Below, one piece after another: positions 12,898-13,267 of a stretch of DNA of 64,000 nucleotides. The DNA is from Patescibacteria group bacterium. Lineage in GTDB: Bacteria > Patescibacteriota > Patescibacteriia > JAHJFT01. The stretch spans positions 359,397 through 423,396 of the forward strand of contig JAQTTB010000001.1 in the NCBI GenBank assembly GCA_028710985.1, given 5' to 3'. The notes under the pieces were generated by a model. It had not been told where the DNA came from. It saw nothing but the letters and a program-made list of their open reading frames with translations, and ran no database searches. Every line of letters begins with the position of its first letter. Positions within the stretch are counted from its first letter, which is position 1. The position numbers were made by a program, and so were the translations under genes.

Positions 12898-12964
12898 ACT
12901 GTAAATCTTAAGTAAAATATTTGAGTTGTCGATTTTAATTTGGAGCCCGCCAAAGGCGGACAAA

Positions 12965-12982
12965 AGCGGGCGACCGGAATCC
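12965..12982 (-). repeat. partial copy of the tRNA-Gly 3' end (T-loop through acceptor: agcgggcgaccggaatcc)
   Basis: Identical to 13076-13093 of the intact tRNA-Gly up to the T-loop. It lies 100 nt downstream of the gene. Confidence 0.7.
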
Positions 12983-13024
12983 CTGCCTTCGCCCCTCGAT
13001 AAGCTCGGGGCTACGGCAGGCAGG
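12982..13024. repeat. palindrome-family variant: CCTGCC + 27-nt internal segment + GGCAGGCAGG
   Basis: cctgcc-ttcgcccctcgataagctcggggctac-ggcaggcagg. The termini equal the arms of the 20-nt palindrome. Confidence 0.55.
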
Positions 13025-13075
13025 AAACCGGCATTCTATTTCGAGGATCCCGATCGGGTTGTTTAAAAAATTATC

Positions 13076-13147
13076 AGCGGGCGACCGGAATCGAACCGGC
13101 ATCTTCAGCTTGGAAGGCTAACATAATAGCCATTATACGACGCCCGC
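13076..13147 (-). tRNA. tRNA-Gly (anticodon TCC)
   Basis: Manual fold: GCGGGCG acceptor, anticodon loop CTTCCAA, T-arm GCCGG-TTCGATT-CCGGT, discriminator U, no encoded CCA. Leader and trailer form an extended inverted repeat (aaaaaattatca / tgataatttttt and ttcgaggatccc / gggatcctcgaa). Confidence 0.85.
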
Positions 13148-13222
13148 TGATAATTTTTTAAGGACTCTTACGGGCGGGATCCTCGAAAATTCAACCTCGC
13201 TTCGCTTCGGGAATTTTCGGGA

Positions 13223-13248
13223 GAAGGCTAACGTAATAGCCATTATAC
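13223..13248 (-). repeat. partial copy of tRNA-Gly positions about 10-35 (D-arm to anticodon loop), joined directly to the 20-nt palindrome
   Basis: gaaggctaacgtaatagccattatac matches 13113-13138 with 1 mismatch. The copy ends within the anticodon loop. Confidence 0.7.
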
Positions 13249-13267
13249 CTGCCTGCCGGCAGGCAGG
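13248..13267. repeat. 20-nt perfect palindrome CCTGCCTGCCGGCAGGCAGG
   Basis: Exact self-complementary 20-mer. Confidence 0.9.

What the first reader, a model, noticed from the sequence alone, without database searches (positions are those of the whole stretch)
12947..13267. Every tRNA locus except Phe/Ile carries partial copies of its own 5' half and/or 3' end: an integration-scar signature
- Gly: a 3'-end copy at 12965-12982 (T-loop to acceptor) and a copy of positions 10-35 at 13223-13248 abutting the palindrome.
- Glu: a 3'-end copy at 36182-36202 and a copy of the 5' half (positions 1-35) at 36511-36565.
- Arg: a 35-nt copy of the 3' end plus flank at 52369-52403.
- Pro: the 3' fragment at 14278-14340 and the split gene.

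The 5'-side copies end in the anticodon loop, and the 3'-side copies begin in the T-loop. These are the two crossover positions used by tRNA-targeting tyrosine integrases (established knowledge about such elements).

The spacers between gene and copy are only 100-170 nt of hairpins, so the elements themselves are gone or miniature. No integrase is encoded in the window.
Basis: partly seen in the sequence, partly recalled or inferred. Interest (0 to 1): 0.7.

Follow-up and report, generated by a model that had tools for sequence, protein, structure and literature searches.

The report
Broken shadow copies around tRNA genes
Four of six tRNA genes in this Patescibacteria (candidate phyla radiation) genome piece sit beside or inside broken second copies of themselves, cut up by small GC-rich hairpin insertions that elsewhere travel with a tiny GIY-YIG nuclease gene; this looks like a little-described mobile element that targets tRNA genes, not integrase scars.

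Summary
All listed partial tRNA copies exist at the stated coordinates, on the tRNA strand, far above chance. Logan contigs from two sequencing runs (independent assemblies) reproduce the parts of these loci they cover.

The interpretation needs changing. The "breakpoints" are mostly not ends of homology. They are precise insertions, without target duplication, of GC-rich hairpin modules into a second "shadow" tRNA copy. These sit in the D-arm, at anticodon position 35/36 and in the T-loop, and the copies resume on the far side. At Gly, Glu and Pro the intact tRNA lies nested between the shadow's 5' and 3' parts and is bracketed by inverted repeats. The two outer Pro halves join into a perfect second tRNA-Pro(TGG).

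No integrase was found among the about 45 ORFs scanned. One 85-aa GIY-YIG nuclease gene abuts tRNA-Ile.

The same 20-nt palindrome and module family occur in over 160 environmental and viral contigs. In 9 independent contexts of close homologues of that nuclease, 7 have a tRNA within 100 nt downstream and all 9 carry a module. Several show a module-bearing 5' shadow. In one, the ORF lies between the module arms.

Best reading (about 0.5): footprints of a nuclease-associated, palindrome-ended element family that targets tRNA genes and brings a replacement copy.

The parts
13268..13277 (-). Shadow tRNA-Gly nt 1-10 (GCGAGTGTCG, 8/10 identical to the intact gene); begins 2 nt after the Ddl stop codon
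   Evidence: a weak match on its own, supported by its position directly 5' of the palindrome
13248..13267 (-). 20-nt palindrome PAL (CCTGCCTGCCGGCAGGCAGG) inserted precisely in the D-arm of shadow Gly (GTCG|PAL|TATAAT)
13223..13247 (-). Shadow tRNA-Gly nt 11-35; ends after anticodon position 35
   Evidence: (25/26, E 2e-7)
13149..13222 (-). Spacer holding the hairpin CGAAAATTC..GAATTTTCG and the left arm of the inverted repeat that brackets the intact tRNA-Gly (TTTTCGAGGATCCCG..TTAAAAAATTATCA)
13075..13148 (-). Intact tRNA-Gly(UCC), nested between the shadow parts
   Evidence: 60.1 bits
13039..13074 (-). Right arm of the bracketing inverted repeat (TGATAATTTTTTAA..CGGGATCCTCGAAA); it extends the acceptor helix seamlessly
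   Evidence: z -8.2; 14-bp exact arm
13026..13036 (-). Shadow tRNA-Gly variable region and T-stem 5' strand (GAATGCCGGTT; 9 nt exact)
12982..13024 (-). Hairpin module in the shadow T-loop (CCTGCCTGCC GTAGCC..GGCGAA GGCAGG)
12965..12981 (-). Shadow tRNA-Gly nt 57-73 (T-loop 3' part to discriminator)
   Evidence: 17/17, E 2e-4
12946..12960 (-). Trailing hairpin TCCGCCTTTGGCGGG (TCCGCC..GGCGGA family)
14510..14544 (-). 5' half (nt 1-35) of a second gene, tRNA-Pro'(UGG)
14489..14509 (-). Left module arm (CCTGCCCGCCAT..) bracketing the inner tRNA-Pro
   Evidence: same termini as modules next to GIY-YIG ORFs in L177
14413..14488 (-). Intact inner tRNA-Pro(UGG) with encoded CCA, sitting in the anticodon loop of Pro'
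   Evidence: 71.4 bits
14396..14412 (-). Right module arm (AGGCGACGGCAGGCGGG)
14355..14395 (-). 3' half (nt 36-76) of tRNA-Pro'; joined to 14510-14544 it gives a perfect cloverleaf
   Evidence: ARAGORN: tRNA-Pro(tgg), 76 nt
14278..14337 (-). Third partial Pro copy: D-stem 3' strand, then hairpin TCCCGACGTTGGGTCGGGA in place of the anticodon arm, then nt 44-76 exact
   Evidence: (33/33, E 6e-14); same design in L060 tRNA-Ala copies
14835..15092 (-). 85-aa stand-alone GIY-YIG nuclease ORF; its stop codon lies inside tRNA-Ile
   Evidence: PF01541, E 3e-14; UPF0213 structures
14768..14844 (-). tRNA-Ile(GAU), directly abutted by the GIY-YIG ORF; no shadow and no module
36544..36565 (-). Shadow tRNA-Glu nt 1-22 (exact)
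36524..36543 (-). PAL variant (CCTGCCTGCCGGTAGGCAGG) inserted precisely in the D-arm (GGCTAG|PAL|GACACC)
36511..36523 (-). Shadow tRNA-Glu nt 23-35 (exact)
36462..36510 (-). 49-nt hairpin module inserted at anticodon position 35/36; contains two TCCGCC..GGCGGA hairpins
36451..36461 (-). Shadow tRNA-Glu nt 36-46 (CAATGTGGTAA, exact)
36429..36450 (-). Left AT-rich bracket (ATTTAAAAACATA) before the intact gene
36354..36428 (-). Intact tRNA-Glu(UUC), nested
   Evidence: 61.8 bits
36295..36351 (-). Terminator hairpin of the inner tRNA-Glu, then the right AT-rich bracket (TATGTTTAA..TAAAT)
36289..36294 (-). Shadow tRNA-Glu nt 47-52 (TAGGGA, 5/6). Short and weak; supported by position and by pairing with 36182-36202 in the fold
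36203..36288 (-). Hairpin modules in the shadow T-loop, ending in CCCCGACTTTCGCGAAGCGAAACGTCGGGG
36182..36202 (-). Shadow tRNA-Glu nt 55-75 (CGATTCCCCTACGGGCTACCA, exact)
36130..36149 (.). Solo PAL copy amid short-period AT-rich repeats downstream of the Glu locus
52142..52215 (+). Intact tRNA-Arg(UCG)
52216..52308 (+). Spacer: native 3' flank and terminator-like AAGAGCGCGGGTGTTTTTT, then small GC hairpins (TGCGCCCGAGGCGCA, CTCGCCTTCGGCGAG)
52309..52314 (+). Shadow tRNA-Arg T-loop start (GGTTCG, 6/6), immediately 5' of the modules
52315..52367 (+). Two CCCGAC..GTCGGG hairpin modules inserted in the shadow T-loop
52368..52404 (+). Shadow tRNA-Arg from T-loop C56 to the 3' end plus a copy of the 3' flank (one G deleted in the acceptor strand)
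   Evidence: (D5)
1879..1898 (.). PAL-like copy (2 mismatches) at the apex of a CCCGAT/ATCGGG hairpin, in the long non-coding stretch before rpoB

Best explanation
Each affected locus holds two tRNA copies: an intact, functional one and a "shadow" broken into pieces.

What breaks the shadow:
- Precise insertions, with no target-site duplication, of a family of GC-rich modules whose two ends pair.
- The outer stem is CCYGCCYGCC...GGCRGGCRGG. The 20-nt palindrome CCTGCCTGCCGGCAGGCAGG is the minimal form.
- CCCGAC..GTCGGG and TCCGCC..GGCGGA hairpins also occur.
- At Gly, Glu and Pro, the insertion carries the intact tRNA itself, bracketed by inverted repeats.

Proposed origin:
- These modules are the miniature, non-autonomous relatives of a mobile cassette built around an 80-98-aa stand-alone GIY-YIG nuclease. 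In other Patescibacteria, and at tRNA-Ile here, that cassette sits directly on tRNA genes.

Proposed mechanism:
1. The nuclease breaks a conserved tRNA gene.
2. Recombinational repair from a cassette-bearing template copies in the cassette together with a replacement copy of all or part of the target. The essential gene stays intact, and the resident gene's 5' and/or 3' parts are pushed aside as shadows.
3. The nuclease ORF is later deleted. It is gone at Gly, Glu, Pro and Arg and still present at Ile.
4. The dispensable shadows go on collecting modules at their loops.

Shown: the anatomy, the recurrence of the modules, and the association of nuclease, tRNA, module and shadow in independent contigs.

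Inferred: that the nuclease makes the breaks, the order of events, and the loss of the ORF.
For: Anatomy of the four window loci:
- Module insertions are precise. GGCTAG|PAL|GACACC and CTTT|49 nt|CAATG match the intact Glu sequence.
- Removing PAL from the tRNA-Met on viral contig L154 restores a normal tRNA.
- The outer Pro' halves join into a perfect tRNA-Pro(UGG) that differs in sequence from the inner gene.

Bracketing repeats:
- Long exact ones flank shadowed intact tRNAs: window Gly 14 bp, L060 Ala 13 bp, L072 Asn 12 bp.
- The brackets at window Pro and Glu are imperfect (longest exact run 7 bp; seen).
- Unshadowed tRNAs reach at most 9 bp.

Module enrichment in the window:
- CCYGCCYGCC: 10 sites against 1.0 expected, 8 of them at tRNA loci.
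- CCCGAC-N-GTCGGG: 8 against 0.07 expected, 4 in shadows.

PAL elsewhere:
- At least 120 metagenome contigs and 48 IMG/VR contigs.
- It lies inside tRNA fragments, nested in itself, and in hairpin loops.

Same architecture with an ORF present:
- L113, L080, L072 and L165 show [5' shadow with PAL] - GIY-YIG ORF - tRNA.
- L060 and L083 show ORF-less nested or 3' shadows with T-loop modules, as in the window.

Sample not selected on PAL:
- Homologues of the window nuclease were fetched in 9 distinct contexts.
- 7 have a tRNA 3-100 nt downstream.
- All 9 carry a CCYGCCCGCC..GCGGGCGGGG module.
- L171, L172, L177 and L189 have a module-bearing 5' shadow.

L183:
- The ORF lies between the module arms (ACCCGCCCGC ... 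GCGGGCGGGT).
- The unit is inserted after codon 11 of an epimerase gene.
- A 33-nt 5' shadow is left upstream and an intact gene copy starts downstream.

Mobility:
- Nuclease homologues are 65-79% identical across CPR lineages, whereas Ddl reaches at most 60%. This fits horizontal movement.

Precedent:
- The phage T4/T6 GIY-YIG enzyme SegB cuts inside tRNA genes, with motif RAWTSGAAC, which is the complement of the T-loop sequence.
- It drives recombination-dependent segmental amplification of tRNA genes, and its homologues co-localise with tRNAs (PMC13096335, sections 9-10; PMC2330249).
Against: - No nuclease ORF or detectable remnant lies in the Gly, Glu, Pro or Arg spacers (tblastn).
- The one GIY-YIG gene in the window, at tRNA-Ile, has neither module nor shadow.
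- The protein is a bare catalytic domain of UPF0213 type with no DNA-binding domain. Site-specific homing is unproven and it could be a housekeeping enzyme.
- Some GIY-YIG-adjacent tRNAs show no shadow (L065, L083 Ser-gct, L086).
- No empty-site versus filled-site pair was found, because there are no close relatives.
- Module positions in the D-arm vary (10/11 to 22/23), so they arose by repeated independent insertion, not by inheritance of one cassette.
- 3' shadows with an ORF present are poorly documented (only L140).
Confidence: 0.5

Rival explanations
1. Passive decay. tRNA genes were duplicated locally by slippage or unequal recombination. The redundant copies are among the few dispensable sequences in a streamlined genome, so dispersed REP- or MITE-like palindromes accumulate there. 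The GIY-YIG gene next to tRNAs is unrelated, for example a housekeeping UPF0213 enzyme co-transcribed with tRNAs.
For: - CCCGAC..GTCGGG hairpins also occur outside tRNA loci (9928, 24570, 25429, 40900).
- Most PAL sites in other contigs are not in tRNAs. Only 1 of 190 PAL deletions restores a tRNA.
- L060 shows tandem repeated 3' units that include the terminator, as slippage would give.
- No ORF remnant is present in the window spacers.
Against: - Tandem duplication does not give nesting. The Pro' halves fit exactly around a different tRNA-Pro gene.
- The intact genes are bracketed by inverted repeats.
- Modules recur at the same loop positions in independent loci: T-loop in window Gly, Glu and Arg and in L060 and L083; 35/36 in Gly, Glu and Pro.
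- 9 of 9 nuclease contexts carry a module, and one ORF lies between module arms with a target 5' duplication in a protein-coding gene.
Confidence: 0.25
2. The copies are attL/attR remnants of elements inserted by tRNA-targeting tyrosine integrases, with crossover in the anticodon loop or T-loop; the elements were later deleted down to about 100-170 nt.
For: - 3' copies lie downstream of the intact gene, as in att duplications.
- At Arg the identity runs about 20 nt past the tRNA end.
- L015 shows a plain T-loop-to-end copy without modules.
- Sublocation preference of integrases for these loops is established knowledge.
Against: - No integrase among about 45 ORFs scanned.
- 5' halves lie upstream of the gene, and the D-arm and variable loop are also interrupted.
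- Homology resumes beyond the "breakpoints".
- Spacers are built of the same hairpin modules seen in unrelated contigs.
- Nested complete genes carry inverted-repeat brackets.
Confidence: 0.08
3. The interrupted copies are functional genes. The hairpins and the nested tRNA act as intron-like inserts removed at the RNA level, giving mature tRNAs; Pro' in particular would be a working split or intron-containing tRNA.
For: - Every insert has paired ends, so the outer cloverleaf can still form (folds, z -3.7 to -8.4).
- Pro' is a perfect tRNA once the insert is removed.
- Glu shadow exons are 100% identical to the intact gene.
- The G.U-type PAL variant is in the tRNA sense strand in 3 of 3 informative cases.
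- Patescibacteria do carry self-splicing introns at 35/36 (PMC13011429).
Against: - The inserts are blunt helices with no bulge-helix-bulge motif and no group I core (no Rfam hit).
- Shadow Gly and Glu lack segments and are not recognised as tRNAs after in-silico removal of the inserts.
- An intact isoacceptor with the same anticodon is present at each locus.
- No bacterial enzyme set for such splicing is known.
Confidence: 0.07
4. The anticodon-loop inserts at 35/36 are degenerate remnants of group I introns, which are common at exactly this position in Patescibacteria tRNA genes.
For: - The 35/36 site matches PMC13011429.
- The Glu 5' exon ends in U35.
- The Pro junction can be drawn as U|...G.
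- L165 has a true group I intron in the tRNA-Lys next to a GIY-YIG ORF (86 bits).
Against: - Inserts of 49 and 114 nt are too small and have no Intron_gpI signal.
- This does not explain the D-arm or T-loop inserts, the duplications or the nesting.
- The Gly 5' exon ends in C35.
Confidence: 0.05
5. Assembly artefact at repeat-rich sites.
For: - Logan contigs break inside the repeated tRNA sequences.
- The Pro' 5' junction (14389-14544) and the Glu 3' shadow region (below 36392) have no second assembly.
Against: - Independent Logan assemblies from two runs match the window over the Gly locus, the Pro 3' part, the Glu 5' shadow and the Arg locus.
- The same architecture appears in contigs from unrelated projects.
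Confidence: 0.02

Closest known systems
Free-standing GIY-YIG homing endonuclease SegB of phages T4/T6 (Seg family)
   Same: - A GIY-YIG nuclease gene embedded among tRNA genes.
- It cuts within tRNA genes at a motif that is the T-loop sequence.
- Break repair by recombination duplicates or amplifies tRNA-containing segments.
- Homologues co-localise with tRNAs (PMC13096335; PMC2330249).
   Different: - SegB is about 220 aa with a DNA-binding part; here the protein is an 80-98-aa catalytic domain only.
- The host is a bacterium, not a phage; there is no hit in annotated phages.
- Here there are conserved GC-rich hairpin modules and stable, module-riddled shadows rather than transient tandem arrays.
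- No cleavage data exist.
UPF0213 / YhbQ-type stand-alone GIY-YIG proteins (prokaryotic Slx1-like cluster; PDB 1zg2, 1ywl)
   Same: Best sequence match, same size and same single-domain architecture (PMC1564403).
   Different: For this family, the papers I searched and read describe no mobile behaviour, no tRNA adjacency and no companion palindromes. Its biological role is unknown.
tRNA-targeting integrative elements (tyrosine integrases; att duplication of the tRNA 3' part)
   Same: Insertion into an essential tRNA gene is tolerated because the incoming DNA restores the gene, and a displaced fragment remains as a direct repeat.
   Different: - No integrase and no island.
- 5' fragments as well as 3' ones, and whole-gene nesting.
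- Interruptions also in the D-arm.
REP/BIME elements with RAYT transposases, MITEs, and Rickettsia palindromic elements
   Same: - Short GC-rich palindromes dispersed in many copies, some nested in each other.
- Apparently derived from, or served by, a protein-coding partner.
- Rickettsia palindromic elements insert into genes, including RNA genes (my own knowledge, not checked here).
   Different: - The partner here would be a GIY-YIG nuclease, not an HUH/Y1 or DDE transposase.
- The 20-nt core is identical across many divergent hosts and viral contigs.
- There is a strong link to tRNA gene fragments.
Group I introns at position 35/36 of Patescibacteria tRNA genes
   Same: Same phylum and same insertion position in the anticodon loop (PMC13011429).
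   Different: The inserts here have no ribozyme core, occur in redundant copies, and also hit the D-arm and T-loop.
Archaeal multi-intron and split tRNA genes (Thermoproteales, Nanoarchaeum)
   Same: tRNA genes interrupted at several positions, including non-canonical ones; halves flanked by complementary sequences (my own knowledge).
   Different: - Bacterial host.
- No bulge-helix-bulge motif.
- An intact copy is always present, so no splicing is required.

Membership tests
Tyrosine-integrase att scars at tRNA genes | Integrase gene, or its remnant, next to the repeat-bounded segment | tested here: not met
   Pfam scans of about 45 ORFs in the window found no Phage_integrase hit. The last 5 ORFs (58.6-64 kb) and rpoB/rpoC were not scanned.
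Tyrosine-integrase att scars at tRNA genes | The direct repeat equals the tRNA segment from the crossover point to the 3' end, and identity stops at the crossover | tested here: not met
   Homology resumes 5' of the T-loop inserts (Gly 9-11 nt, Arg 6/6, Glu 5/6; L060 and L083 with long stretches). 5' halves are also duplicated.
Tyrosine-integrase att scars at tRNA genes | Element DNA (kb scale) lies between the repeats | tested here: not met
   Spacers are 16-190 nt and made of hairpin modules, brackets and terminators.
Free-standing GIY-YIG homing endonuclease cassette | GIY-YIG catalytic domain with conserved Y, Y, R, E residues | tested here: met
   PF01541, E 3e-14. Y5, Y16, R26 and E50 are invariant in 13 homologues.
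Free-standing GIY-YIG homing endonuclease cassette | Separate DNA-binding domain that gives long-site specificity | tested here: not met
   The protein is 85 aa and a single domain; the best structural relatives are UPF0213 proteins.
Free-standing GIY-YIG homing endonuclease cassette | The gene sits beside or inside a conserved target gene | tested here: met
   The stop codon lies inside tRNA-Ile. 7 of 9 homologue contexts have a tRNA within 100 nt; one is in an epimerase gene.
Free-standing GIY-YIG homing endonuclease cassette | Cleaves the cassette-free allele; presence/absence polymorphism at the same site | not testable with these tools
   No close relatives and no biochemistry.
REP/MITE-like palindromic repeats | A short palindrome in many dispersed copies, above chance | tested here: met
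   within the window; across collections.
REP/MITE-like palindromic repeats | A full-length autonomous element whose ends equal the miniature element's arms | tested here: inconclusive
   One case only: in L183 the ORF lies between ACCCGCCCGC and GCGGGCGGGT. In the other contexts the complete module lies beside the ORF.
Group I intron in tRNA (Patescibacteria 35/36 type) | Catalytic core detectable with RF00028 | tested here: not met
   No hit in the window at the gathering threshold, nor at E<=1 over 12800-15000. Positive control: L165 scores 86 bits.
Archaeal-type bulge-helix-bulge introns / split tRNA | Bulge-helix-bulge motif at exon-intron junctions | tested here: not met
   By inspection and folding, the inserts are blunt-ended helices without 3-nt bulges.

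The most novel reading that the evidence does not exclude
Patescibacteria carry a previously undescribed mobile-element family. Its autonomous form would be an ORF of about 250 nt for a bare GIY-YIG nuclease, held between GC-rich palindromic arms. Its derivatives would shrink to 20-50-nt hairpins; the 20-nt palindrome would be among the smallest mobile DNAs known. Some copies would carry a tRNA gene as cargo. The element would invade essential tRNA genes, and occasionally protein-coding genes, at loop-coding positions, and would survive by bringing a replacement copy of its target. A GIY-YIG enzyme acting as the nuclease of a palindrome-ended insertion element has, to my knowledge, no described prokaryotic precedent.
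Probability: 0.3. Interest if true: 0.8.

Novelty: new variant of a known kind. Interest (0 to 1): 0.62.

Why it matters
- **Genome economy.** Patescibacteria have tiny genomes and mostly single-copy tRNA genes, so anything that invades tRNA genes is under strong constraint. If this reading holds, it shows how selfish DNA persists there: by carrying a spare copy of its target.
- **Annotation.** The shadows explain tRNA-like debris that confuses tRNA annotation in these genomes. Split or interrupted copies can be missed or miscalled.
- **A handle on a poorly understood protein family.** It links a widespread family of uncharacterised function (UPF0213, stand-alone GIY-YIG) to a concrete DNA partner, the hairpin modules, and to a testable activity.
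- **Cross-host spread.** A 20-nt palindrome conserved across many hosts and viral contigs points to active exchange between these bacteria and their phages.

Tried and rejected
- **Close relatives for locus comparison.** A scan of genome contigs with Ddl found only a 35% Bdellovibrionales hit. The nearest Ddl in the protein database is 60% identical. No orthologous empty site could be examined.
- **Known RNA families.** Rfam, at gathering threshold and at permissive E-value, found no family for the modules and no group I intron in the window.
- **"Modules always insert in hairpin loops".** Only partly true. 10.5% of 181 distinct PAL sites have a flanking stem of 6 bp or more, against 2.0% in controls. 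Most PAL sites lie in low-complexity AT-rich repeats.
- **"PAL sits in otherwise intact tRNAs".** Rejected. Deleting PAL restores a tRNA in only 1 of 190 sites, the viral tRNA-Met in L154.
- **Nuclease remnants in the window spacers.** tblastn with three proteins found none.
- **Annotated phages and viral contigs.** No match to the nuclease in the phage collection. A scan of viral contigs with the nuclease alignment gave two partial hits only.
- **Literature on the exact palindrome.** No paper holds the sequence.
- **SegB motif.** GTTCSAWTY fits the T-loops of Gly, Glu and Arg (which have T-loop inserts) and not those of Pro, Ile and Phe. It fails for L060 tRNA-Ala, so I treat it as a lead only.
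Full report
**Source and setting**

The window is bacterial. It holds a full-length 16S rRNA gene (15677-17174, minus strand), followed by an AdoMet decarboxylase gene, a small ORF, tRNA-Ile, tRNA-Phe and a tRNA-Pro cluster. The Ddl protein encoded between the Pro and Gly loci is 100% identical to an NCBI protein from "MAG: Patescibacteria group bacterium" on a 744,538-bp contig. 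Its next best homologue is only 60% identical, so no close relatives are available. A scan of species-representative genomes found none either.

Yes. All are on the tRNA strand and within 160 nt of the gene:
- Gly nt 11-36 at 13248-13223 (25/26, E 2e-7).
- Gly nt 57-73 at 12981-12965 (17/17).
- Pro nt 44-76 at 14310-14278 (33/33, E 6e-14).
- Glu nt 1-22, 23-35 and 55-75, all exact.
- Arg nt 56-70 plus about 20 nt of 3' flank.
- Phe and Ile have none.

Logan contigs from two sequencing runs, built by a different assembler, match the window over three regions. These are 9280-14388 (the Gly locus and the 3' part of the Pro cluster, 1 mismatch), 36392-37936 (the Glu 5' shadow, 100%) and 50389-53141 (the whole Arg locus, 100%). 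The Pro' 5' half and its junction, and the Glu 3' shadow region, have no second assembly.

**What the copies really look like**

They are pieces of a second, "shadow" tRNA copy interrupted by small inserts.

*Glu, read on the minus strand:*
- nt 1-22
- 20-nt palindrome
- nt 23-35
- 49-nt hairpin insert
- nt 36-46
- 22 nt, then the intact tRNA-Glu with its own terminator, then 21 nt
- TAGGGA (nt 47-52, 5/6)
- 86 nt of hairpins
- nt 55-76

The shadow exons are identical to the intact gene, and each junction is exact. GGCTAG|insert|GACACC and CTTT|insert|CAATG show no duplicated or lost target bases.

*Gly:*
- GCGAGTGTCG (8/10 of nt 1-10)
- palindrome
- nt 11-35
- 74-nt spacer
- intact tRNA-Gly
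- 36 nt
- GAATGCCGGTT
- 43-nt hairpin insert
- nt 57-73

*Pro:*
- A different tRNA-Pro gene (Pro') is split after anticodon position 34 or 35.
- The insert is 114 nt: CCTGCCCGCCAT.., then the intact tRNA-Pro(UGG), then ..GGCGACGGCAGGCGGG.
- Joined in silico, the Pro' halves give a perfect 76-nt tRNA-Pro(UGG).
- A third Pro fragment follows. Its anticodon arm is replaced by the hairpin TCCCGACGTTGGGTCGGGA.

*Arg:*
- Only a 3' shadow is present: GGTTCG, then two CCCGAC..GTCGGG hairpins, then CGAATCC..3' end plus a copy of the flank.

So the "T-loop breakpoints" and two of the three "anticodon-loop breakpoints" are insert sites inside longer copies. The D-arm is hit as well.

The intact nested genes are bracketed by inverted repeats. 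At Gly the leader and trailer extend the acceptor helix by 13 bp and then by a further 14 bp. At Pro and Glu the brackets are imperfect.

**The inserts form families**

- CCYGCCYGCC occurs 10 times in the window against 1.0 expected; 8 of these are at tRNA loci.
- CCCGAC-N(3-20)-GTCGGG occurs 8 times against 0.07 expected; 4 are in shadows.
- TCCGCC-N-GGCGGA occurs twice against 0.01 expected.
- The 20-nt palindrome CCTGCCTGCCGGCAGGCAGG has four copies.

**They are not private to this genome**

That is far more than chance allows for a 20-mer. Its contexts:
- Inside tRNA fragments: the D-arm in L113, L165, L080 and L072; the T-arm in L060 and L140; the variable loop of a viral tRNA-Met in L154.
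- Nested at the centre of another copy of itself (L046, L047, L051, L053, L121).
- In loops of other hairpins: 10.5% of sites against 2.0% in controls.
- Most often, amid short-period AT-rich repeats.

Contig L060 repeats the window's architecture with other tRNAs. A tRNA-Ala(CGC) is nested in a shadow and bracketed by a 12-13-bp inverted repeat. Tandem 3' shadows of tRNA-Ala(GGC) have the anticodon arm replaced by TCCCGACGTACGTCGGGA, and their T-loop is split by TCCGCCAGAGGCGGA plus CCCCGAC..GTCGGGG. L083 shows a 3' shadow with GGTTCG|CCTGCCCGCC..GGCAGG|AATCC.

**The link to a nuclease**

In several palindrome-bearing contigs the shadow and the intact tRNA are separated by a small ORF. All such ORFs match the Pfam GIY-YIG domain.
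- L113: 5' shadow of tRNA-Lys with the palindrome, then the ORF, then a tRNA.
- L080: the same with tRNA-Ser, with two shadows.
- L072: tRNA-Asn; the ORF's stop codon is inside the tRNA.
- L165: tRNA-Lys; the downstream copy carries a true group I intron.

The window has one such ORF (15092-14835, 85 aa). Its stop codon lies inside tRNA-Ile. It has no module and no shadow.

Its homologues are 65-79% identical in many CPR lineages, higher than housekeeping Ddl reaches. I fetched nine distinct genomic contexts of homologues, chosen only for contig length:
- Seven have a tRNA 3-100 nt downstream (Val, Val, Lys, His, Lys, Lys, Lys).
- All nine carry a module of the CCYGCCCGCC...GCGGGCGGGG type.
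- Four have a tRNA 5' fragment with that module in its D-arm just upstream of the ORF.

In L183 the ORF lies between the two module arms (ACCCGCCCGC ... GCGGGCGGGT). The whole unit sits after codon 11 of an epimerase gene, whose first 33 nt remain as a shadow, and an intact copy of the gene starts 35 nt downstream. The bracket around the window's inner tRNA-Pro has the same arm sequences.

**Literature**

- The T4/T6 GIY-YIG enzyme SegB cuts inside tRNA genes at a motif that is the complement of the T-loop. It drives recombination-dependent amplification of tRNA-containing segments, and its homologues co-localise with tRNAs (PMC13096335, sections 9-10; PMC2330249).
- Patescibacteria carry group I introns at 35/36 of tRNA genes (PMC13011429).
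- The stand-alone GIY-YIG proteins closest to ours (UPF0213; PDB 1zg2, 1ywl) have no assigned role (PMC1564403).
- I found no paper describing the palindrome, the modules or a GIY-YIG/tRNA association in CPR. The library is incomplete, so this is not proof of novelty.

**Most likely mechanism (confidence about 0.5)**

1. A nuclease-associated, palindrome-ended element family targets conserved genes, chiefly tRNA genes.
2. Break repair copies in the element together with a replacement for all or part of the target.
3. The resident gene's parts are left as shadows.
4. The ORF decays, and miniature modules keep inserting into the dispensable shadows.

The anatomy and the associations are shown. 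The causal role of the nuclease, the order of events and the loss of the ORF at four loci are inferred.

Points against:
- There is no ORF remnant in the window spacers.
- The window's own nuclease gene has no module.
- The enzyme lacks a DNA-binding domain.
- No empty site was seen.

**Rivals**

- Passive accumulation of REP-like palindromes in slippage-generated duplicates (0.25). It does not explain nesting, the exact Pro' split, the brackets or L183.
- Integrase scars (0.08). They fail on four counts: no integrase found, kb-scale element DNA absent, duplicated 5' halves, and D-arm inserts.
- Functional intron-like inserts (0.07). There is no known splicing signal, and the Gly and Glu shadows are incomplete.
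- Degenerate group I introns (0.05).
- Assembly artefact (0.02).

**Verdict**

The integrase reading is only partly supported: mobile-DNA scars yes, that mechanism no. The feature is best filed as a new variant of homing-endonuclease-type cassettes combined with REP/MITE-like palindromes. A plausible, more novel reading is that the GIY-YIG gene and the palindromes form one element family.

Noticed in passing
L003-L170 (metagenome and IMG/VR contigs); window 1879, 13248, 36130, 36524: The exact 20-nt palindrome CCTGCCTRCCGGYAGGCAGG is shared by at least 120 environmental contigs and 48 viral contigs from many projects. It is often nested in itself or flanked by short-period AT-rich repeats. No paper in the library holds the sequence.
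   Followed up: partly
L154:2239-2330 (IMG/VR contig); related L125:8616: A viral tRNA-Met(CAU) carries the palindrome in its variable loop, and ARAGORN still calls it a tRNA with a long extra arm. This is the only case where an interrupted tRNA might still work.
   Followed up: partly
L165:515-1416: One locus combines a 5' shadow of tRNA-Lys holding the palindrome, a GIY-YIG ORF, and a tRNA-Lys 5' exon followed by a group I intron (Rfam 86 bits).
   Followed up: partly
L183:1134-1570: A GIY-YIG ORF lies between the module arms and is inserted after codon 11 of a NAD-dependent epimerase gene. The gene's 5' end is duplicated. So the targets are not only tRNA genes.
   Followed up: partly
window 14835-17174: The 16S rRNA gene is followed by an AdoMet decarboxylase gene, the GIY-YIG ORF, tRNA-Ile and tRNA-Phe. 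No 23S gene appears in the window, so the rRNA genes seem unlinked.
   Followed up: no
window 1832-2606: About 770 nt of non-coding DNA lie upstream of the large ORFs at 2607-9910 (rpoB/rpoC by position; not checked). It holds a PAL-like hairpin and repeated ATCGGGACC / GATCCCGA motifs, which also occur in the Gly and Glu loci.
   Followed up: no
window 21092-21195 and 22342-22445; 21245-22018: Two 104-nt direct repeats (99% identical) flank ORF 21201-22304. That ORF contains 192-nt tandem repeats and has no Pfam hit.
   Followed up: no
window 24570-24585, 25429-25456, 9928-9953, 40900-40915: CCCGAC..GTCGGG hairpins of the same family as the shadow T-loop inserts also lie inside the S16 gene's long repetitive C-terminal extension, inside the SMC gene, and in two intergenic spots.
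   Followed up: no
window 53112-53153 and 53337-53378: A 42-nt direct repeat (90% identical) spaced 225 nt apart, ending in a Shine-Dalgarno-like CCTCC on the opposite strand; unexplained.
   Followed up: no
window tRNA T-loops (Gly, Glu, Arg versus Pro, Ile, Phe): The three tRNAs whose shadows have T-loop inserts carry GTTCGAWTC, which fits the published SegB cleavage motif. The three without do not. L060 tRNA-Ala breaks the rule, so this may be coincidence.
   Followed up: partly
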